DNA of 56,751 bases, taken from positions 1 to 56,751 of the IMG/VR virus record IMGVR_UViG_2778261162_000006. The stretch is one strand, 5' to 3'. The position numbers were made by a program, and so were the translations under genes. The stretch comes from a virus. Its lineage: Duplodnaviria > Heunggongvirae > Uroviricota > Caudoviricetes. Position 1 is the stretch's first letter. Every line of letters begins with the position of its first letter. The notes under the pieces were generated by a model. The model ran no database searches. It saw only the letters and a program-made list of their open reading frames with translations, and was not told the DNA's origin. Below are positions 1,369 through 47,827 of this stretch, one piece after another.

Positions 1369-1444
1369 GCCGATATAGCTCAGTTGGTAGAGCAGCGCAT
1401 TCGTAATGCGAAGGTCGTAGGTTCGACTCCTATTATCGGCACCA
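1369..1444 (+). tRNA. thrW: tRNA-Thr (anticodon CGU)
   Basis: 76-nt sequence GCCGATATAGCTCAGTTGGTAGAGCAGCGCATTCGTAATGCGAAGGTCGTAGGTTCGACTCCTATTATCGGCACCA with GGTTCGA T-loop and 3' CCA; anticodon CGT by position. Confidence 0.9.
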
Positions 1445-39530: not shown

Positions 39531-42284
39531 CTATTTGATTGCTGCATTGATTCGTTTATATCTTTGGGTAAAGGCCTCTTTGCCACCTTCCATCACTCGG
39601 CATATCTCATCGCGTATGGAAGGTTCTTGAAGACCCCCTTGCGCCACAATTCTGGTTTGACCAGACCGAATATCAAGGGCAATGACGTTTTCCGCGTCAC
39701 CATTCACGACGATGTTAGCGTTGTGCGTGACTACTAAAACCTGCCGTTTTTGTTTGATCTCACGCAATTGCGTCACGATAAGATCATAGATTAAGTGGTT
39801 ATCAAGATCATCCTCAGGCTGATCAAGTATAAGAGGCTCATTGCCATATGAAAGGATAAATGCAAGGAGAGCCGCCGTTTTTTGCCCCGGAGATCCTTGC
39901 TCTACGGGTTTGAAACTCTCGCCGTTCTTGAGGCTATATCTGATATCCAGAGAATCGCCTGGAAACCAGCACTGAATTCGATCTATCTGTTCCGGAGTTA
40001 GCCCCTGAATGAGGGATACAAAACGTCGATCTTTGCAGGATTCCACCGCCATAGTATCGTTTTCATGGATTGCAAGTAGCGATGATTTTATTTTCTCAAT
40101 TTTATCATCCATAGTATTGGATTGGTCTTGCGTTAAATAAGCCAGCAAGCCCTCATCCCCGTCAACAACTCCAATGTCGCGGTCAAATCCGCCACCACTG
40201 CGGCCGATCAGGTTACGGAATTCTTCCTCAACCGTAATCTTGTTTCCAAACGGAATGACATTGATCTGTACATATGAATTGCCGACGAGAGTATCCTTGA
40301 GAAAGTCCTCACGAAGTTTGGTTATCAATGCTCGATGCTCATGGAGTTTGACCAAGTATTCTTCCGCGCTCTTCTGATGCTGCGCAAGAGTTTCTCTCTT
40401 TTTGTCGAATCCCTTGAGCTTATCTTCGAAATCTTGTCGCTGCTTAACCAGAACACCATATGCAGATGGATCACCTGCGTCTGCTGCGCTGAGTTGACCG
40501 AGGAGGGCGTTGTATTCATGGCTCGCCGCTGTAATTCTTTTCGATATTCCCAAGTCTGATCGAGTTTGATTCCATGAGTTCTTCACATCATCAATCCGCT
40601 GCGCGATCGAGTTCATCTCTGTCTGAAGCTTCTCAAACGTCGCACGGATGTCCTTGATGGTATCGAAGAGTTCTTTGTCATCCGCATTCCCAATGTCGAA
40701 ATATTGTAAATCCAATTCTGCTGGCAGTAGGCTTCCAGAAATATCTCGGACCTGTTCGGCGGAATCCTCCCAAGTCGTTACCCAGGAGTCCATAGCCTTA
40801 CTCTGGTTCTGTCTGAGTTGGTAAGCCTTAAGGACATCCGCGTGGCCCGCCTTTTCAAAAACATCGAGTTTGCGTTTGACGTCTTCAAGCTGACCTTTGG
40901 TTACCGATTCTTCCTGAAGCCCAGCCTGAACTTCACGCTCTTGGGCGCGAAGCGAGAGATATTTGGAAACCAGTTCATCCCACTTAAGCTGCCAATCACG
41001 ATGATTGACCTCCGGGGCATCATCGACAACCTGCAAGAGTGCTTGGGGATGCTTTGCCAATTCGAATATCTGTTTCTGGCTGTAAATCCTGACAGGAAAT
41101 CGTTGTGCTATGTCTCCCTCGGAATCACACCAGACTCCGGGAGCGGTCTCTTCCTCGATGCTGTATATGTCGTCGGTATTAGACCAGGTGATTCGGAAAC
41201 GGCCACCGTCTTTTCGAAAGCCTACAGTTATTTTCGTGGAATCTTTTAACAGCCCTTCATCTTGGCGGTCTTTCGAAGTTTGACTGTATTTGGTAAATTC
41301 CTTTTCAAGGCTCTTGGGGATTTCTCCCTTTCGTTTAAGAGCAATCCGCAGGAATTCCAACGAAGTCGATTTCCCAGTGCCTCGTCCACCAATGATAGTG
41401 TTGAGCCAGGGGTTCAGTTGACAAGTTAAAGATTGCCCTCGTCCTAAGTACTTCGCATCATCAACCACGATACTTTCGATGGCAAGTTGTCCATGGATAT
41501 TTGGGTCACCAGTGAAGTTGTCCGACCGCTTCAGTGAAAGAGCCCCATCAACGAGCGCCAGCCGTAATCCGTCATAAGATGGCTCCGACATTTTTACCCA
41601 AGTGAAATGGCTACCCGGGTAGCGTTGATTTCCGGTACCGGACGGATGATGGGAATCGGTTCCAAGAATCTCTGCCCAATTCAAATTCTTGCCAATATAG
41701 AGCTGCGGTTTTGCTTTAGCAAGGTCCGTTACCTCCATAGCAAAAACACATTTGTTGTCAAGCACCTGCTCTAGTGTGTTGCCCGTACAGACCGTAAAAA
41801 GTCCGCTAGCCTGATCTACATGAGCAGGTATTGCAAGTCCTCCTGACCTAGCAATTTCGTCGATCACCTCAACTGCTGAGCATTCAGAGCAGCCGTCGCT
41901 CTTTCCTTTGGTGCCGCGATACCTGACCGCACCAAGCAGTGAGTCGATATCAGAGGTTGTCTTGTCTTCGCCGAAAATGGCCAGAATATGGATATTCCCC
42001 TGAACAGTAAGCTCAACACCTGGGAATAAGTAGAGTGGTCGATAATCTTCATGACTCTCAGATGCCAGTTCCTTGAGTGCCTGCTTGAGCGGATCAATCC
42101 AAGCGCCTGAATTATGGTCCGTGACAGCGACACAATCGATGCCTTGTCGCATGTAGTTGAGCAGCCAATCTTTATGAGTGATCTGCATATACTGGGCCTG
42201 ATTAGGGCCTTTTCCATAATCGTCCGATGCCGGAGTGTGATTATGGAAGTCGAATTTCCACCACCGAGAACCAATCCAGTTCAT
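39531..42284 (-). CDS. PHP phosphoesterase fused to SMC/Rad50-like ABC ATPase with coiled-coil (Ppl-like defence protein candidate)
   Basis: N-terminal FDFHNHTPASDDYG, VAVTDHN, IPAHV, GTDSHH PHP motifs; Walker A GGRGTGKST; signature-like SPGQKTAALLA; Walker B LILDQPEDDLD; H-loop VLVVTHN; long E/K/Q-rich insert between Walker A and B. Confidence 0.75.
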   Translation of the reverse strand: MNWIGSRWWKFDFHNHTPASDDYGKGPNQAQYMQITHKDWLLNYMRQGIDCVAVTDHNSGAWIDPLKQALKELASESHEDYRPLYLFPGVELTVQGNIHILAIFGEDKTTSDIDSLLGAVRYRGTKGKSDGCSECSAVEVIDEIARSGGLAIPAHVDQASGLFTVCTGNTLEQVLDNKCVFAMEVTDLAKAKPQLYIGKNLNWAEILGTDSHHPSGTGNQRYPGSHFTWVKMSEPSYDGLRLALVDGALSLKRSDNFTGDPNIHGQLAIESIVVDDAKYLGRGQSLTCQLNPWLNTIIGGRGTGKSTSLEFLRIALKRKGEIPKSLEKEFTKYSQTSKDRQDEGLLKDSTKITVGFRKDGGRFRITWSNTDDIYSIEEETAPGVWCDSEGDIAQRFPVRIYSQKQIFELAKHPQALLQVVDDAPEVNHRDWQLKWDELVSKYLSLRAQEREVQAGLQEESVTKGQLEDVKRKLDVFEKAGHADVLKAYQLRQNQSKAMDSWVTTWEDSAEQVRDISGSLLPAELDLQYFDIGNADDKELFDTIKDIRATFEKLQTEMNSIAQRIDDVKNSWNQTRSDLGISKRITAASHEYNALLGQLSAADAGDPSAYGVLVKQRQDFEDKLKGFDKKRETLAQHQKSAEEYLVKLHEHRALITKLREDFLKDTLVGNSYVQINVIPFGNKITVEEEFRNLIGRSGGGFDRDIGVVDGDEGLLAYLTQDQSNTMDDKIEKIKSSLLAIHENDTMAVESCKDRRFVSLIQGLTPEQIDRIQCWFPGDSLDIRYSLKNGESFKPVEQGSPGQKTAALLAFILSYGNEPLILDQPEDDLDNHLIYDLIVTQLREIKQKRQVLVVTHNANIVVNGDAENVIALDIRSGQTRIVAQGGLQEPSIRDEICRVMEGGKEAFTQRYKRINAAIK

Positions 42285-42646: not shown

Positions 42647-42694
42647 ATTCGTAATGCGAAGGTCGTAGGTTCGACTCCTATTATCGGCACCATT
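42647..42694 (+). repeat. attR core (copy of tRNA-Thr 3' end); also the tRNA-proximal att of the downstream satellite
   Basis: Identical 48 bp to 1399..1446. Confidence 0.85.
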
Positions 42695-42858: not shown

Positions 42859-44073
42859 GTGAAACTCAATGCCCGTCAAATAGACACTGCCAAGCCAAAA
42901 GAGAAGGCTTACAAGCTGGCTGATGGTGGTGGTCTGTATCTCTTGGTAAAACCTAGTGGAGGAAAATATTGGCGCTTCAAGTATCGTGTAGCTGGTAAAG
43001 AGAAGCTGTTAGCACTAGGTGTGTATCCTGAAGTTACCTTGGCTGATGCTCGTGCAAAACGTGAAGAAGCTAAAAGGGGTATCGCTGGGGGTATCGATCC
43101 GATGGAAGCGAAACGAGAGGAAAAGATTGCCCGGGAAACGCAGTTAAACAACACCTTCAAAGATATTGCCCTTGAGTGGCACAGCAGCAAATTAAAAAAA
43201 TGGTCTGCTGGTTATGCTTCAGACATCCTCGAAGCCTTTAACAAAGATGTGTTCCCTTACATTGGCAAAAAACCAATCGCCGAAATCAAACCACTTGAAC
43301 TGCTGAATGTGCTGCGGCGCATCGAGGGGCGCGGTGCTACCGAAAAAGCCAAAAAAGTGAGGCAGCGATGTGGGGAAGTTTTCCGCTATGCAATTGTCAC
43401 TGGACGTGCTGAGTATAACCCTGCACCGGATCTCACCAGCGCGATGCAAGGTCATGAATCTAATCATTATCCTTTCCTCACAGCCAAAGAATTACCTGAT
43501 TTTTTCAAGGCATTGTCCAGTTACTCAGGAAGTGCATTGGTTGTTATGGCGGCTCGTTTACTGATTATCACCGGTTTGCGGACTGGCGAACTGCGCGGTG
43601 CATTATGGGATGAAATCGATCTCAACAAGGCTATCTGGGAGATACCTGCTTCACGGATGAAAATGCGTCGCCCTCATGTAGTGCCTTTGTCTGAGCAGGC
43701 TCTTTCGCTTATTGGGCAGATTAAAGAACTAACTGGCAATTATCCGCTTATGTTTCCCGGCCGTAATGATCCAAGGAAAACAATGAGCGAGGCTAGCATA
43801 AACCAAGTATTTAAACGCATCGGCTATAACGGAAAGGTTACTGGTCATGGCTTCCGGCACACTATGAGCACCATTTTGCATGAGCAGGGCTATAACACCG
43901 CGTGGATAGAGACACAGCTTGCGCACGTCGATAAAAACTCAATTCGTGGCACATACAACCATGCGCAATATCTGGATGGGCGGCGGGAAATGCTTCAGTG
44001 GTACGCTGATTATATGGATTCGCTCGAGCATGGCGGAAATGTGGTGCATGGTGAGTTCGGAAAATGCGGGTGA
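42859..44073 (+). CDS. P4-type tyrosine integrase
   Basis: 404 aa; GTG start after GGAGG; GHGFRHT and catalytic Tyr region; N-terminal arm-binding domain. Confidence 0.9.
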   Translation: MKLNARQIDTAKPKEKAYKLADGGGLYLLVKPSGGKYWRFKYRVAGKEKLLALGVYPEVTLADARAKREEAKRGIAGGIDPMEAKREEKIARETQLNNTFKDIALEWHSSKLKKWSAGYASDILEAFNKDVFPYIGKKPIAEIKPLELLNVLRRIEGRGATEKAKKVRQRCGEVFRYAIVTGRAEYNPAPDLTSAMQGHESNHYPFLTAKELPDFFKALSSYSGSALVVMAARLLIITGLRTGELRGALWDEIDLNKAIWEIPASRMKMRRPHVVPLSEQALSLIGQIKELTGNYPLMFPGRNDPRKTMSEASINQVFKRIGYNGKVTGHGFRHTMSTILHEQGYNTAWIETQLAHVDKNSIRGTYNHAQYLDGRREMLQWYADYMDSLEHGGNVVHGEFGKCG

Positions 44074-44201
44074 CTGGTTGAGTATACAGTAGTAGACTTT
44101 GAGCGACGAAAGAAAAGGCTGTGTCTAGGGTCGCTCCCGAAAATCCGTACACCTCGACGGACTGGTACAGCCACTACAGTAGAGGACGCTGAGGTGTGCG
44201 T

Positions 44202-44999
44202 ATGATTGATATTCATGCCGAATTAAACGAATACAAAAAAGATTTTATTTCTTTACGTGAATTTCTTGAGGTCGTGCTTAAGGTCGCTGGTGATGATTAT
44301 GATGTTTCAGATGTCATAACTTGGATACTCAGGAGAATAAGCGGAGAACATATCCGCCTGTACACAGTAAATGAATTTAAGCTGTTGGAATCTTTTTGTA
44401 ACCCGTATCGGGATGAATTTGATAATGATGTTCTTTATAGAAATCTGAATGCGGTTCGGAAACGTGGTTGTTTACCTGGTGAGAGGGATGAAAATGGTTT
44501 TCTGGTGTCCGGTTATTGGGAAGATCCCGAATTTGAGAACATTGGATTTATAAGGGGTGAAATTTTCGCAATTTTTCCCGATGTCCTTGACGCGTTAACG
44601 AAGCTGGAAGGCGCTAACTCTTCTGAAAATGACGAGGCACAAGGACGCGATATTGAAAAGAAAGAGTTGCGTACAGAGGATGATTTATTATCCCAAATCG
44701 CAATGCTGGAAAAAGAAAACGCAGAGTTAAGGGCAAGGATAGAGCAGTTAGAGCAAGAGCGCCCGATACACTTATATAAATACTGGGATAAAGACCCATT
44801 AGCTAAGGCTATTGAGATTAGAAACAGAGAGTGGGCCAATTACGATCCAGAAAATGATTTTGCCACCAGGGGAAATCAAGAAGCGATAACCAGGGAGCTT
44901 AAGCAGTGGGGGGCAAGTAATGCACTTGCAACGCTCATAGAGAGGACTGCCTGCCCTATTAACCGAGACAACAGCCAAAAGAACGCAAAGCCGGATTAA
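44202..44999 (+). CDS. Hypothetical protein with central coiled-coil
   Basis: ORF; segment LLSQIAMLEKENAELRARIEQLEQE. Confidence 0.55.
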   Translation: MIDIHAELNEYKKDFISLREFLEVVLKVAGDDYDVSDVITWILRRISGEHIRLYTVNEFKLLESFCNPYRDEFDNDVLYRNLNAVRKRGCLPGERDENGFLVSGYWEDPEFENIGFIRGEIFAIFPDVLDALTKLEGANSSENDEAQGRDIEKKELRTEDDLLSQIAMLEKENAELRARIEQLEQERPIHLYKYWDKDPLAKAIEIRNREWANYDPENDFATRGNQEAITRELKQWGASNALATLIERTACPINRDNSQKNAKPD

Positions 45000-45013
45000 C
45001 GCACCATACCGCA

Positions 45014-45160
45014 TACCCTGAGGGTGATTTACTGTTACCCTGAGGGTATTTTTTTATCTTCCCCGTCAATTTTACCATCACCCTTAGGGTAGATTTCCTC
45101 CCGATTACCATCACCCTTAGGGTAGATTTCCTTCCGGTAACCATTAGGCCTGAGGGTATG
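45014..45160. repeat. Direct repeat array with CCCT(G/T)AGGG cores upstream of alpA
   Basis: TACCCTGAGGGT x2, TACCATCACCCTTAGGGTAGATTTCCT x2, CCTGAGGGTATG. Confidence 0.7.
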
Positions 45161-45226
45161 AAAATATTCGTTATTTCTGTGCCATGATTACCTCGTCAAA
45201 TTGAGTAGACGTTATGAGGTAAATAT

Positions 45227-45424
45227 ATGTCAAATACGCTTATTCGTTTAACAGAAGTTCAGCGTAGAACTGGATATAGCAAGGCATGGATTTATCGCCT
45301 TATGGGGCAAGGTAAATTTCCTGCATCAGTTAAAATTGGCTCGCGAGCTATTGCTTTCGTTGAGAGTGAAATTGACGAGTGGATTAATCAGCGTATTGCG
45401 GAATCACGCGGAACAGCTACCTGA
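45227..45424 (+). CDS. alpA: AlpA-family transcriptional regulator/excisionase
   Basis: 65 aa; LTEVQRRTGYSKAWIYRLMGQGKFP HTH typical of AlpA. Confidence 0.85.
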   Translation: MSNTLIRLTEVQRRTGYSKAWIYRLMGQGKFPASVKIGSRAIAFVESEIDEWINQRIAESRGTAT

Positions 45425-45501
45425 TTAAATGGCTACGGGGCTATTGCCCCCAGCTATCCACCAGCAAATAAAAGTAACTTAATTCGATAGCAGGAGTTTT
45501 T

Positions 45502-46302
45502 ATGAAATTTCCAAAAACGCCCGTACAGGGGCGGGGCTTCGTTCGGCCTGAAAACCAGAATCTGCAAAATTTCGGCGAAATTATCCCGGTTATTTCCGGC
45601 ATTATTGGCGGGTGTGAAACCAATATTGTTAGCGCCAGAGCGTTGCATAAGGCGTTAGGTGTAGGTCGCGTTTTCCGTTCGTGGATCAAGGGGCGCATTG
45701 AAGAATACGGCTTCACGGAAGGCGTGGATTATGAGGTTGTTGAATATTTGAGCCGACCCGATCCGGTGAGCGCAAAATCTCGCCAGCAAACAGCTCTTGA
45801 GTACATCATTACCGTGAACATGGCAAAAGAACTGGCGATGGTCGAACGCACCGAACAGGGCCGCGCCGTTCGCCAGTACTTCATCAAATGCGAGGAGGAG
45901 CTACACAAGGTAGCGCCAGTGCGTTCCGCAGCTTTACGCCGGGAACTGAAAGCCCGTATCACCGTTGCCAGCTACTTTAAGCCAATGTGTGCCGCGCTGG
46001 AGGCGTACCGGGCTGAACTGGGTAAAAACACGCTCCAGCACCATTACACCACGGAAGCCAATATGCTGGCGCGTATCGTGCTGGGTGGCATGACTGCAAA
46101 ACAGTGGGCGCAGGCGAACGGCATCACAGGCGAACCACGCGACCACATGAGCACATTGCAGCTTGAGCACCTTTCTTACCTTGAGCAGAGCAATATCACG
46201 CTGATTGAGTTAGGCCAGGACTACCACCAGCGGAAAGCTGAATTAATTCGTCTTTCGCAGCGTTGGTTAGCCCGTCGCATGGAGGAAAACAGCCATGTGT
46301 AA
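45502..46302 (+). CDS. Phage antirepressor (AntA/KilAC-like)
   Basis: 266 aa; recollection-based family match. Confidence 0.6.
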   Translation: MKFPKTPVQGRGFVRPENQNLQNFGEIIPVISGIIGGCETNIVSARALHKALGVGRVFRSWIKGRIEEYGFTEGVDYEVVEYLSRPDPVSAKSRQQTALEYIITVNMAKELAMVERTEQGRAVRQYFIKCEEELHKVAPVRSAALRRELKARITVASYFKPMCAALEAYRAELGKNTLQHHYTTEANMLARIVLGGMTAKQWAQANGITGEPRDHMSTLQLEHLSYLEQSNITLIELGQDYHQRKAELIRLSQRWLARRMEENSHV

Positions 46303-46968
46303 CGCTCTGACCGTTACAAAAAGAGAAAGCGCCCCGTTGCCGGAGCGCCTTTGTGAACAAATCGCTTACTGCGCCATATTGTTTACTGCCTTTCGGGCAG
46401 ATTATAGCGTTGTGGTCGCACAGAGTGAAGGCGCTGATCACTGTTACTACAGTACGCCAGAAATGCAGAATATTTTGCTGCAAAATGCCGTTAGCCACGC
46501 TGTCCGGAAAGCAAAAAATTTTGCTGGTGGCGCGACTGATGCGATTTTGTCAGGTCACCAGGTGCTGATCAATCTGATGTCTGATTTCGTTCTGGATAAA
46601 ACAAAGGCGACTGCAGAGGGCCACCAGTGGGAAAGCTACACACTTGAACACATTGCCAACAATGCCAGATTTGCGGCTGGTGGGCAATGTGATCAGTGTG
46701 CTGGCTTGCTGGTGGGCTATTCATGCTCTTTAACATTGCCATGCCGCGATGTTTTCCAGGTATGCGATCCCATTTTTGTGCGCCTGTACTCTTTAAGGAA
46801 TTGCTCAAGGGCAAAAGCACATGGCGCGAATCTTTCTGATTCATGCTCTATCTTTCTGCGCCGTCTTTTCCGTGCCGGTGATGGTGTATTGGTTGATTCT
46901 TTGTTGGTCATTCTGTGTACCTGTAAAGCAATGCGCCGGAGTTCCTCACACCACGGCGATGATAGTTA

Positions 46969-47274
46969 TTATTCTGATTCTTTGGCCTTGCGGCGCTGGA
47001 GTTCTTCACGTGCGACGGTGACGAGCTGCCCGATCTCCTCGGCAGCTTTGACTCCGATTTTTTCCACCTGCGCCAGCGCATCGAGCGAAGAAACTAGGGG
47101 ATTTTCTCCGCTTCCTTCTGCCTGGCGGCGGGCGATCTCACCGCGCATGGCGGTTACTATGAATCCGGCGTTGCTTTCACCGTCCAGTTTTACGGATTCC
47201 ATGCCTTCAAAAGCATCATGTGGGATACGAATTGAAATCTGTTTTGATTTGTCGTTGATAGTGTTTTTTGCCAT
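46969..47274 (-). CDS. Hypothetical regulator-like protein (101 aa)
   Basis: ATG after GGAG; divergent from 47462 gene across operator-bearing intergenic region. Confidence 0.55.
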   Translation of the reverse strand: MAKNTINDKSKQISIRIPHDAFEGMESVKLDGESNAGFIVTAMRGEIARRQAEGSGENPLVSSLDALAQVEKIGVKAAEEIGQLVTVAREELQRRKAKESE

Positions 47275-47294
47275 GTGCATTCTCCTAAACAAAA

Positions 47295-47375
47295 GATGTG
47301 ATTCAGTATACACAAAAAAGAATCACAAAAAATACTTGACCTGTGATTCAGTTAAATTTAATTTAAATCACACCT
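47295..47375. promoter_or_regulatory. Operator-like sites in divergent promoter region
   Basis: TGTGATTCAG x2 direct, GAATCACA and AAATCACAC inverted. Confidence 0.55.
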
Positions 47376-47461
47376 CAGTAAGAGGATGTAAACGACAACG
47401 CCCCGAACTGTTTGCGGCAGTAGCGGGGCGTCTAACCAAACCGTTAAATGAGGTAACGATT

Positions 47462-47827
47462 ATGGCTGGAACACAGCATACCCAAACTCACCCTAAATTT
47501 ATATACACCTTCCTGGCGGTGCACCGTGATTGCATAGCTGACGGTAAAAACACTGTACACGTAGCTGCTGATACGCTGGTTGATGCCTGCGAGATGCTCA
47601 ATGACATGGGCTATATCTCGGCAACATGGAAAGGGCGCGAAGAAAACACGCTGTTTATTCAGAAATGCGAGAACAATTTTATCTGGCGTTTTATCGCCCT
47701 GAGCACAGCACAACCGCGCGTAATTCACATCGAGGCCACCAGCGAACAGGAAGCACGCCAGCAATCCCCTGATGGCTGCGTGATGGTATTCGCTGCCCGT
47801 ATTCGCCAGGAGGTGGAGCATGTGTAA
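47462..47827 (+). CDS. Hypothetical protein (121 aa)
   Basis: ATG after GAGGTAACG; part of the long composite ORF 46295..47827. Confidence 0.55.
   Translation: MAGTQHTQTHPKFIYTFLAVHRDCIADGKNTVHVAADTLVDACEMLNDMGYISATWKGREENTLFIQKCENNFIWRFIALSTAQPRVIHIEATSEQEARQQSPDGCVMVFAARIRQEVEHV

What the first reader, a model, noticed from the sequence alone, without database searches (positions are those of the whole stretch)
44202..44999. Coiled-coil protein of unknown function between the satellite integrase and alpA
The gene directly follows the integrase and precedes a repeat array and AlpA. It has no recognisable catalytic motif but a clear coiled-coil. Integrase-proximal slots in integrative elements often carry accessory or defence functions.
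Basis: seen in the sequence. Interest (0 to 1): 0.4.

Follow-up and report, generated by a model that had tools for sequence, protein, structure and literature searches.

The report
Conserved regulator-like gene upstream of alpA
The gene is real and belongs to an undescribed protein family that, in phage satellites of enterobacteria and Pasteurellaceae-like contigs, always sits between a structured RNA leader and the satellite's master switch gene alpA, so it is more likely the switch's controller than a defence cargo gene.

Summary
The ORF (44202-44999, 265 aa) is real. It lies between the integrase and alpA of a PICI-type satellite inserted at a second thrW copy. It has no Pfam, PHROG, PADLOC or NCBIfam family and no fold match.

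It has four parts: a variable acidic N-terminal domain, a disordered linker, a four-heptad leucine zipper, and a highly conserved ~70-aa C-terminal domain ending AIExVACPIxR.

In all ~75 related loci an AlpA gene follows directly. This includes Pasteurellaceae-like, capsid-forming-PICI-like contigs where no integrase is adjacent. The Rfam "int-alpA" RNA is the gene's 5' leader in essentially all of them.

The downstream repeats are TACCCTnAGGGTA palindromes. They track the type of C-terminal domain, not AlpA. Elements with almost the same AlpA but a distantly related C-terminal domain carry TGGTG-type repeats instead.

Best reading (about 0.5): a zipper-dimerised regulator whose C-terminal domain binds the alpA operators and whose variable N-terminal domain senses the helper phage. 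This would be Stl-like logic in a new family. Whether it represses or activates is unresolved, and DNA binding is inferred, not shown.

The defence or accessory reading is weaker (about 0.2). The prototype EcCICFT073 lacks the gene, so the module is optional.

The parts
42647..42692 (+). 46-nt copy of the 3' part of tRNA-Thr(CGT) thrW. This is the left attachment-site core of the satellite, which sits in tandem behind a thrW prophage.
   Evidence: Exact 46-nt match to positions 31-76 of the tRNA at 1369-1444.
42859..44073 (+). Satellite tyrosine integrase (404 aa).
   Evidence: Pfam Arm-DNA-bind_3, Phage_int_M and Phage_integrase.
44117..44201 (+). Structured 5' leader of the gene, matching Rfam RF02996 'int-alpA RNA'. 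It is a three-way junction. The loop of its second hairpin (ACACCTCG) is complementary to the purine box and Shine-Dalgarno sequence (GAGGTGT, 44191-44197) of the ORF.
   Evidence: Rfam 45.5 bits against a gathering score of 35.8, E 1.6e-8. My own covariance model scores 96.7 bits here and hits 64 places, each ending at the start codon of the family gene or of its split-off N-domain ORF. Stems P1 and P3 covary. Loop and box pair as CACCTC/GAGGTG, CACCCC/GGGGTG, CCTTA/TAAGG and CCCTA/TAGGG.
44202..44606 (+). ORF residues 1-135: variable, acidic N-terminal domain, the putative input or sensor. The model shows a beta-alpha-alpha-beta-beta unit followed by a semi-conserved GF.R.EI..IFP motif.
   Evidence: pLDDT about 87-90. 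This region is poorly conserved among homologues while the C-terminus is conserved. In Yersinia, Morganella and many IMG/VR loci it is encoded as a separate ORF of roughly 100-185 aa (mostly 100-150). pI is 4.6.
44607..44675 (+). ORF residues 136-158: acidic linker, predicted disordered.
   Evidence: pLDDT below 50 for residues 139-158.
44676..44759 (+). ORF residues 159-186: four-heptad leucine zipper (L162, L169, L176, L183; N173 at an 'a' position).
   Evidence: Single helix H159-186 in the model. L169 and L183 are invariant and L176 nearly invariant. A zipper precedes the C-terminal domain across the family. Weak bZIP, Max and C/EBP hits fall only here.
44760..44999 (+). ORF residues 187-265 plus the stop codon: the conserved C-terminal domain (about residues 187-255). 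Signature: P.LL..YR.DDPL..AI..RN.EW..Y...(variable)...A.AIE.VACPI.R. This is the putative operator-binding output domain.
   Evidence: Invariant residues are D198, R207, W211, I246, E247, C251, P252 and R255. A profile search finds 115 representative clusters at E <= 1e-3 among 1.84 billion proteins; the domain lies at the C-terminus of nearly all of them (exceptions: a few partial or chimeric hits such as P0090), behind N-termini with no consistent Pfam domain. The model has pLDDT 78 and five short helices.
45014..45055 (+). Operators O1 (45014-45026) and O2 (45036-45048), both TACCCTGAGGGT(G/A), followed by a run of seven T. Together they also resemble an intrinsic terminator for the ORF.
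45079..45124 (+). Operators O3 (45079-45091) and O4 (45112-45124), both CACCCTTAGGGTA, inside two 33-nt direct repeats.
   Evidence: Start-to-start spacings of 22, 43, 33 and 34 nt are close to whole helical turns.
45140..45165 (+). Degenerate last operator (CCATTAGGCCTGAGGGT) abutting a conserved ATGAAAAT box, which lies in the -35 region of the candidate alpA promoter.
   Evidence: This block is conserved in E. coli, Salmonella, Morganella and IMG/VR loci.
45179..45187 (+). Candidate extended -10 element, TGcCATGAT, of the alpA promoter. This assignment is tentative.
   Evidence: The block TGCCAT(C/G)AT is conserved about 45 nt upstream of the alpA ATG. No sigma-70 consensus promoter was found anywhere in 43950-45550.
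45227..45424 (+). alpA (65 aa). By analogy with the AlpA of studied Gram-negative PICIs this would be the satellite's master activator, and it is the presumed target of the module.
   Evidence: Pfam Phage_AlpA, E 2.4e-19. For the role of AlpA in Gram-negative PICIs see PMC6092414 and PMC11773190.

Best explanation
The gene encodes the dedicated regulator of the satellite's alpA promoter.

The protein dimerises through its leucine zipper. The conserved C-terminal domain of the dimer binds the TACCCTnAGGGTA palindromes that run from the gene's own terminator to the -35 region of the alpA promoter. The variable, acidic N-terminal domain, which is a separate polypeptide in many relatives, is the input that recognises a helper-phage-specific signal.

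My preferred version is that the protein is made together with the integrase in the quiescent state and holds alpA off. Binding of a helper-phage protein to the N-domain releases it. AlpA then rises and drives its own expression, and the satellite excises and replicates. This is the logic of the SaPI repressor Stl, carried out by an unrelated protein. An activator version is almost as likely.

The structured leader (Rfam int-alpA RNA) probably sets the protein's translation level by pairing a hairpin loop with the ribosome-binding region.

Shown: the gene, its domain layout, the strict leader - gene - palindromes - alpA arrangement, and the co-variation of repeat type with C-terminal domain type.
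Inferred: DNA binding, helper sensing, and the sign of regulation.
For: 1. Strict synteny. An AlpA-family gene starts 130-260 nt after the stop in 62 of 62 IMG/VR loci and in every locus from E. coli, Salmonella, Citrobacter, Yersinia, Morganella, a Pasteurellaceae genome and metagenomes. About 28 of the IMG/VR loci have terminase or connector genes upstream, not an integrase.

2. The repeats are sequence-constrained palindromes. They are clustered, spaced at roughly whole helical turns, and occur nowhere else in the window. They are conserved from E. coli to Morganella although the surrounding spacer has diverged. True terminator hairpins in the same spacers instead vary by compensatory changes.

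3. Dissociation from AlpA. Loci L008, L019, L088, L091 and L092 have an AlpA that is nearly identical or of the same type. They carry a protein whose C-terminal domain is only a distant homologue (hhalign probability 88%, E 3e-6) and TGGTG/ATGGTGG-type repeats, with no ACCCT palindromes. A locus with DUF6387 in the slot and the same AlpA type has no such palindromes. Conversely, Salmonella loci with a very different AlpA keep TACCGTGAGGGTA sites.

4. The swapped cassette runs from just after int to about 21 nt before the alpA ATG, so it carries the alpA promoter with it.

5. Architecture. A zipper directly abuts the conserved domain in all members, which fits a dimer on palindromes. The N-terminus is variable or split off, which fits an exchangeable input.

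6. The alpA upstream region has no sigma-70 consensus, and the last palindrome sits at the -35 position.

7. Published precedent. Studied Gram-negative PICIs have no known repressor, and their alpA is switched on by the helper through an unknown route (PMC6092414; PMC11773190). In P. aeruginosa, alpA is controlled by the adjacent repressor AlpR, and the protein is antagonised by YgfB.
Against: - No DNA-binding fold was detected. Foldseek against PDB and BFVD gives nothing with E below about 0.5 for the full model or for the C-terminal domain. HMM searches of PDB hit only coiled coils.
- The protein is very acidic (pI 4.7, net charge about -19) and the C-terminal domain is only about neutral.
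- The C-terminal coding region and the repeats are physically adjacent, so part of their co-variation could be linkage.
- Within enterobacterial loci, quite different C-terminal subtypes share the same ACCCT sites, so I could not map specificity residues.
- The Salmonella pair of sites could be a simple hairpin.
- The prototype EcCICFT073 has int directly followed by alpA, with neither this gene nor the leader, and it is still helper-inducible (PMC6092414). The module is therefore not required in general.
- The slot can hold an unrelated DUF6387 gene behind the same leader.
- The palindrome positions (about -46, -77 and -110 if my -10 assignment is right) fit an activator as well as, or better than, a repressor.
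Confidence: 0.5

Rival explanations
1. Accessory or anti-phage protein carried in the satellite's 5' cargo slot. The variable N-terminal domain recognises an invading phage protein, and the protein blocks that phage or excludes competitors. It does not regulate alpA. On this view the palindromes are only its terminator or 3' region, or belong to another factor.
For: - The 5' end of PICIs is a published location for immune systems (PMC11364771).
- The slot is polymorphic in E. coli satellites with related integrases and AlpA: this gene, a distant relative, DUF6387, or nothing.
- N-terminal hypervariability resembles an arms-race specificity domain.
- The gene lies upstream of alpA, so it could be expressed in the uninduced state, as defence cargo is.
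- The first two palindromes do form a terminator-like hairpin.
Against: - There is no hit to any PADLOC model, and no enzymatic or membrane effector module.
- The conserved part is a ~70-aa helical domain.
- The family is absent from the phage and plasmid collections. It was never seen away from alpA in about 75 loci, including loci where it is not next to an integrase. Defence genes usually move between contexts.
- The leader, the gene, the spacer repeats and alpA co-diverge as one unit from Enterobacterales to Pasteurellaceae-like contigs.
- Three to six sequence-constrained palindromes reaching the alpA promoter are more than a terminator needs.
Confidence: 0.2
2. Anti-activator acting on the AlpA protein rather than on DNA. 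The conserved C-terminal domain binds and sequesters the basic AlpA protein, or blocks its loading onto RNA polymerase, until a helper signal at the N-domain releases it. This would resemble YgfB acting on P. aeruginosa AlpA.
For: - The gene is strictly adjacent to alpA in all loci.
- The protein is very acidic while AlpA is very basic, pI 10.1.
- No DNA-binding fold was found.
- A protein antagonist of an AlpA antiterminator is known (PMC9998450).
Against: - This does not explain why the palindrome type changes with the C-terminal domain type while AlpA stays the same.
- It does not explain why a nearly invariant C-terminal domain accompanies three AlpA subtypes that differ markedly in sequence.
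Confidence: 0.12
3. The palindromes act at the RNA level. Alternative pairings between neighbouring palindromes would form a terminator or an antiterminator that controls read-through from int and the gene into alpA. The protein would have an unrelated role, for example as an excision or integration cofactor.
For: - Neighbouring palindromes are mutually complementary, and the O1-O2 pair is followed by a T run.
- All genes are co-directional, and no consensus promoter was found for alpA.
- The Salmonella sites are arranged so that they can form a perfect 11-bp hairpin.
Against: - The ACCCT/AGGGT sequence itself is conserved across genera. Genuine terminator stems in the related Pasteurellaceae-type spacers instead show compensatory variation.
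- Copy number and spacing vary while the motif stays constant.
- A conserved block with a candidate extended -10 lies downstream of the last site.
Confidence: 0.08

Closest known systems
Stl / Rpr master repressors of Gram-positive PICIs (SaPIs)
   Same: A regulator encoded by the satellite and placed next to the integrase. It gates the satellite's induction genes. Its sequence is highly diverse between elements, and in the published model it is inactivated by a specific helper-phage protein rather than by SOS cleavage (PMC6092414, introduction). The modular plan of DNA binding, dimerisation and a variable partner-binding part is the logic I propose here.
   Different: - There is no sequence or fold similarity.
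- The domain order is reversed: the variable part is N-terminal and the conserved putative DNA-binding part is C-terminal.
- The gene is co-directional with its target rather than divergent.
- The target is an activator gene (alpA), not the whole lytic operon.
- Neither DNA binding nor helper binding has been shown.
AlpR-AlpA (and YgfB) control of the AlpA antiterminator in Pseudomonas aeruginosa
   Same: An AlpA-family regulator whose expression is set by a dedicated regulator encoded immediately beside it. A separate protein can antagonise AlpA directly (PMC7969949, PMC9371919, PMC9998450).
   Different: From my own knowledge, AlpR is a LexA/cI-like self-cleaving repressor that responds to DNA damage. 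The protein here has no such domains. Published PICI alpA promoters respond to the helper phage, not to SOS.
Prototype Gram-negative PICIs EcCICFT073 and EcCIMP1 (int-alpA regulatory region)
   Same: The overall element is the same: int, alpA, YlcI/YnfO, Icd-like, DUF4222, D5/P4-type primase and PerC. AlpA is the helper-induced, self-activating master regulator.
   Different: In EcCICFT073 int is followed by a 365-bp spacer with AACAAC-type direct repeats at 10-bp spacing and then alpA. It has no gene of this family, no ACCCT palindromes and no int-alpA RNA. EcCIMP1 has a different gene in the slot, described as only ~10% of the size of UvrB.
Rfam RF02996 int-alpA RNA
   Same: The 44118-44185 element is a bona fide member: 45.5 bits against a gathering score of 35.8, over the full model length.
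   Different: Rfam files it as a gene/sRNA named after its neighbours. Here it ends at the start codon of this protein family, or of DUF6387 in one case, in 60+ places. Its hairpin loop is complementary to the purine box and Shine-Dalgarno sequence. It therefore behaves as a cis-acting translational leader.
Leucine-zipper transcription factors (bZIP, bHLH-Zip)
   Same: A four-heptad zipper with an Asn at a core position, next to a putative DNA-contacting region, with short palindromic sites.
   Different: There is no basic region, and the segment N-terminal to the zipper is acidic. The similarity is confined to the coil.

Membership tests
Gram-negative PICI-type phage satellite (the element that carries the gene) | Integrase at the left end beside a tRNA-derived attachment site, an AlpA-family regulator downstream of it, a primase/replication module, and a size of about 10-17 kb. 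| tested here: met
   The element has a 46-nt thrW copy at 42647-42692, int, alpA and a D5_N/DUF5906/Pox_D5 primase. Its gene order matches EcCICFT073. It spans about 14 kb in strain F9792. Absence of phage structural and lysis genes was not checked here, and some right-end genes (for example DUF2213) may be capsid-related. Helper dependence was not tested.
Stl/Rpr-type satellite master repressor | Sequence or fold homology to known Stl proteins, which have an N-terminal HTH. | tested here: not met
   No HTH or any other family was found in Pfam, PHROGs or NCBIfam. Foldseek gave no match.
Stl/Rpr-type satellite master repressor | Binds operators controlling the satellite's induction genes and is released by a helper-phage protein. 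| not testable with these tools
   Only indirect support is available: palindromes that co-vary with the C-terminal domain type and a variable N-domain.
Known anti-phage defence systems (PADLOC-DB 2.0) | A match to a defence protein model. | tested here: not met
   Zero families at E <= 1. As a positive control, the neighbouring 917-aa gene hits Ppl at E 2e-157.
Helix-turn-helix DNA-binding domain | A recognisable HTH profile, or a tri-helical fold match. | tested here: inconclusive
   There is no profile or Foldseek match. The last two helices, with a G-x-S turn (residues 228-250), only loosely resemble an HTH. Model pLDDT is 78.
bZIP transcription factors | A basic region immediately N-terminal to the leucine zipper. 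| tested here: not met
   The bZIP_2 hit (E 0.026, below the cut-off) covers the zipper only. The preceding segment is acidic, pI 4.5.
Rfam RF02996 int-alpA RNA (the leader at 44118-44185) | Score at or above the gathering threshold over the full model, with the three-way structure. | tested here: met
   45.5 bits against 35.8, covering model positions 1-71. The stems covary in 55 distinct sequences.
AlpR / LexA-like repressor next to alpA | A Peptidase_S24 self-cleavage domain plus an N-terminal HTH. | tested here: not met
   No such Pfam domains were found.

The most novel reading that the evidence does not exclude
The leader RNA, this protein, its operators and alpA form a previously unrecognised helper-sensing switch. 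It is used by a large class of Gram-negative phage satellites, both classical and capsid-forming PICI-like elements in Enterobacterales and Pasteurellaceae.

On this reading the protein is the missing counterpart of Stl. Its exchangeable N-domain would decide which helper phage induces the satellite. Its new C-terminal domain would be a new DNA-binding fold. The Rfam int-alpA RNA would be a pseudoknotted translational leader that tunes the switch.
Probability: 0.3. Interest if true: 0.8.

Novelty: new variant of a known kind. Interest (0 to 1): 0.6.

Why it matters
How Gram-negative PICIs sense their helper phage has been open since they were described. [quoted passage not shown]

A conserved, modular protein placed immediately upstream of alpA, with its own operators and leader RNA, is a concrete and testable candidate for that sensor in a large subset of satellites. 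Here it was found in about 3% of complete E. coli genomes, in Salmonella, Citrobacter, Yersinia and Morganella, and in Pasteurellaceae-like contigs.

If the N-domain sets helper specificity, swapping it would reprogramme which phage mobilises a satellite. That matters for the spread of virulence and defence genes and for engineered PICI "drones".

The finding also gives a function to an orphan Rfam motif and defines a new protein domain. If the gene turns out to be cargo instead, it would be a new single-gene defence candidate.

Tried and rejected
Searches that found nothing informative:
- Profile searches of the full protein against Pfam, PHROGs, PADLOC and NCBIfam gave only sub-threshold coiled-coil noise.
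- HMM searches of PDB sequences with the full alignment and with the C-terminal alignment gave coiled coils only.
- Foldseek of the full model against PDB and BFVD, and of the C-terminal model against PDB, gave nothing with E below about 0.5.
- tblastn against 50,697 phage records and 72,556 plasmids gave no match.
- A genome-contig scan with the C-terminal profile found nothing.
- A second word-indexed protein search with the C-terminal profile returned mostly fragments.
- A Pfam scan of 93 family representatives, looking for an informative fusion partner, found none. One LacI-type "fusion" (P0090) looks like a truncated chimera, and P0147 is low-complexity.
- Literature searches for the family, for DUF6387 and for EcCI55989 found nothing relevant.

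Ideas I rejected:
- The palindromes as integrase arm sites. They lie 2.3 kb from the attachment-site core.
- The palindromes as AlpA autoregulation sites. They are absent from elements with the same AlpA.
- The palindromes as replication iterons. They are far from the primase module.

Things I tried but could not settle:
- Mapping specificity residues by comparing C-terminal subtypes with site types. The result was not clean.
- Assigning the alpA promoter. Only a tentative extended -10 emerged, and the consensus scan found no promoter.
- A within-sequence shuffle test of the loop-SD pairing. It is weak for single sequences because the tails are G-rich. The support comes from the different pair types across clades.
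Full report
**1. Setting**

The window is E. coli DNA. tRNA-Thr(CGT) (thrW) lies at 1369-1444. It is followed by a prophage with an integrase at 1459-2622 on the minus strand, tail and baseplate genes, and a 917-aa Ppl/TrlF-like defence gene at 39531-42284.

A 46-nt copy of the 3' part of thrW at 42647-42692 marks the left end of a second element. That element carries:
- a tyrosine integrase (42859-44073);
- the gene in question (44202-44999);
- alpA (45227-45424);
- an AntA/AntB gene;
- a D5/P4-type primase.

In strain F9792 RefSeq continues the same element with YlcI/YnfO, Icd-like, DUF4222, ProQ/FinO and PerC genes. This matches the gene order of the prototype Gram-negative PICI EcCICFT073, which I located at NC_004431.1 1377930-1388654.

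**2.

- The ORF runs from the ATG at 44202 to the stop at 44997-44999 and encodes 265 aa.
- It occurs in 153 of 5426 complete E. coli genomes, always on the chromosome, and is annotated as hypothetical.
- The coiled coil is a four-heptad leucine zipper: L162/L169/L176/L183, with N173 at an 'a' position. It forms one helix, 159-186, in the AlphaFold2 model.
- The repeat array is four exact ACCCTNAGGGT palindromes plus a degenerate fifth. All lie within 45014-45160, and there are no others in the 56.7-kb window.

**3. What the protein is**

No curated family matches it in Pfam, PHROGs, PADLOC or NCBIfam. No solved or predicted viral structure resembles the model.

Homologues show a modular plan:
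- a variable N-terminal region (residues 1-135), which the model folds with confidence (pLDDT about 88);
- a disordered acidic linker;
- the zipper;
- a strongly conserved C-terminal domain of about 70 aa, with the signature P.LL..YR.DDPL..AI..RN.EW..Y...A.AIE.VACPI.R.

A profile of that domain finds 115 representative clusters among 1.84 billion proteins. The domain lies at the C-terminus of nearly all of them, in proteins mostly of 130-515 aa; the exceptions are a few partial or chimeric hits such as P0090. Their N-termini have no consistent Pfam domain. The zipper directly precedes the domain across the family.

In Yersinia, Morganella and many IMG/VR loci the N-terminal domain is a separate, often overlapping ORF. 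It is followed by a short protein of 132-155 aa.

The protein is very acidic (pI 4.7), and its C-terminal domain is about neutral.

**4. Context is the main evidence**

I collected about 75 loci: from the look-up of encoding contigs, from annotated E. coli genomes, and from an IMG/VR scan with the C-terminal profile that gave 63 loci.

An AlpA-family gene follows the family gene in 62 of 62 IMG/VR loci that have a downstream ORF, and in all the other loci. The AlpA genes fall into three divergent subtypes.

There are two arrangements:
- Group E, from Enterobacterales: int, then an optional N-domain ORF, then the gene, then alpA.
- Group P, Pasteurellaceae-like contigs that resemble capsid-forming PICIs: terminase and connector genes and small ORFs, then the gene, then alpA, with no integrase adjacent.

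The family is therefore tied to alpA, not to the integrase. It is absent from the phage and plasmid collections.

**5. The RNA leader**

Rfam RF02996 ("int-alpA RNA") matches 44118-44185 above its gathering score. It also matches at the same place in other loci.

I built a covariance model from eight instances. It finds 64 matches, each ending at the start codon of the family gene or of its split N-domain ORF. The matches include Group P.

Stems P1 and P3 show many compensatory changes. The loop of the second hairpin is complementary to a purine box or Shine-Dalgarno sequence just upstream of the start. The pairing changes in step across clades: CACCTC/GAGGTG, CACCCC/GGGGTG, CCTTA/TAAGG and CCCTA/TAGGG.

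This suggests a pseudoknot or anti-SD translational leader rather than a free-standing sRNA. The single-sequence shuffle control is weak.

**6. The palindromes follow the C-terminal domain, not AlpA**

- Group E spacers almost all carry three to six TACCCTnAGGGTA sites or degenerate versions. The last one abuts a conserved ATGAAAAT block, and a conserved TGCCAT(C/G)AT lies about 45 nt before the alpA ATG.
- Loci L008, L019, L088, L091 and L092 have nearly the same AlpA, or the same AlpA type. The slot protein differs: its C-terminal domain is only a distant homologue (hhalign probability 88%, E 3e-6). Their spacers carry TGGTG/ATGGTGG-type repeats and no ACCCT sites.
- A locus with DUF6387 in the slot, which is unrelated, has the same AlpA type and no such palindromes.
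- Salmonella loci with a very different AlpA keep TACCGTGAGGGTA sites.
- The exchanged cassette extends to about 21 nt before the alpA ATG, so it includes the alpA promoter.
- Terminator hairpins in Group P spacers vary by compensatory change, whereas the ACCCT motif is constrained in sequence.
- No sigma-70 consensus promoter exists in 43950-45550.

**7. Interpretation**

The most economical reading is that this is a dedicated regulator of the alpA promoter. It would be a zipper dimer that uses the conserved C-terminal domain to bind the palindromes, with an exchangeable N-terminal input domain.

The literature fits this reading. Studied Gram-negative PICIs have no known repressor. Their alpA is turned on by the helper through an unknown factor and then activates itself (PMC6092414, PMC11773190). 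In P. aeruginosa, AlpA is an antiterminator controlled by the adjacent AlpR and antagonised by YgfB.

I favour a repressor that is relieved by a helper protein, which is Stl-like logic. The operator positions and the missing -35 fit an activator nearly as well.

**8. Weaknesses**

- No DNA-binding fold was detected.
- The protein is acidic.
- Linkage could explain part of the co-variation.
- Different C-terminal subtypes share the same sites.
- EcCICFT073 lacks the whole module, with no gene of this family, no leader and different 10-bp direct repeats, yet it is helper-inducible.
- The slot can hold unrelated genes, and the PICI 5' end is a known site for immune genes.

I therefore keep a defence or accessory reading at about 0.2, an AlpA-binding anti-activator at about 0.12, and an RNA-level role for the palindromes at about 0.08.

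**9. Verdict**

The defence-cargo interpretation is only partly supported. The finding is a new, uncharacterised protein family with a new C-terminal domain, embedded in a deeply conserved unit of leader, gene, operators and alpA. Functionally it looks like a new variant of a satellite master regulator. Experiments are needed for DNA binding, for the sign of regulation and for helper sensing.

Noticed in passing
window 44118-44185 (extended to 44201); also L002, L003, L011-L013, L017, L020 and about 55 IMG/VR loci: The Rfam int-alpA RNA (RF02996), filed as an sRNA, ends at the start codon of this gene family in 60+ places across Enterobacterales and Pasteurellaceae-like contigs. Its second hairpin loop is complementary to the purine box or Shine-Dalgarno sequence, with compensatory changes between clades. 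It looks like a pseudoknotted translational leader. In one locus (L017) the same leader precedes an unrelated DUF6387 gene.
   Followed up: partly
window 39531-42284 (- strand): A 917-aa protein with a PHP-like N-terminus and an ABC/SMC-type ATPase. It matches the anti-phage protein Ppl (PADLOC E 2e-157) and the NCBIfam TrlF family (651 bits, above the cut-off). It sits at the right end of the thrW prophage, just before the satellite. In strain F9792 the same position holds different genes.
   Followed up: no
window 1369-1444 and 42647-42692: The satellite is integrated in tandem behind a prophage. It uses the duplicated 46-nt 3' part of thrW left at the prophage's right end. The neighbouring prophage is an obvious helper candidate, but this was not tested.
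   Followed up: partly
L008 3049-3762, L019 2173-2889, L091, L092: A second protein family of about 237-242 aa (WP_042093515.1 and WP_001526646.1) occupies the same slot in other E. coli satellites. Its C-terminal domain is a distant homologue (W.TYDP...G.G.N.A, with a basic tail). Its spacer carries TGGTG/ATGGTGG-type repeats.
   Followed up: partly
L017 4218-5099 (E. coli UPEC132): A DUF6387 protein (293 aa) sits between int and alpA, behind the same RNA leader. Its function is unknown, it has no PADLOC hit, and it is unrelated to the family studied here.
   Followed up: partly
window 44952-44966 (residues 251-255) and all family members: The extreme C-terminus carries an invariant Cys-Pro within A-C-P-I-x-R. 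An invariant cysteine in a small cytoplasmic domain is unusual. From my own knowledge it resembles Cys-Pro haem-regulatory motifs. No explanation was tested.
   Followed up: no
window 46295-47827: A 510-aa open frame here is probably spurious. RefSeq annotates small genes in this stretch instead (YlcI/YnfO on the minus strand, Icd-like and others). Related satellites (L002, L003) have a P4-type C4/CI antisense RNA (Rfam RF01695) in the equivalent region, but none was detected in the window at E <= 0.1.
   Followed up: no
window 45502-46302: The AntA/AntB antirepressor-like gene after alpA also matches the PADLOC candidate defence model PDC-S22 in its C-terminal half (E 5e-10).
   Followed up: no
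L005 733-818, 1592-1677 and 2429-2513 (metagenome contig): This contig has three copies of the leader RNA. Two lie within repeated small cassettes that include Endonuclea_NS_2-like ORFs, which resemble a polymorphic-toxin array. The third precedes a 99-aa ORF upstream of the family gene.
   Followed up: no
L016 11175-11260 (EcCICFT073 int-alpA spacer): The prototype PICI has six AACAAC-type direct repeats at 10-bp spacing just after int, and ACACAA repeats before alpA. There are no palindromes. This repeat system differs from the one in the window.
   Followed up: no
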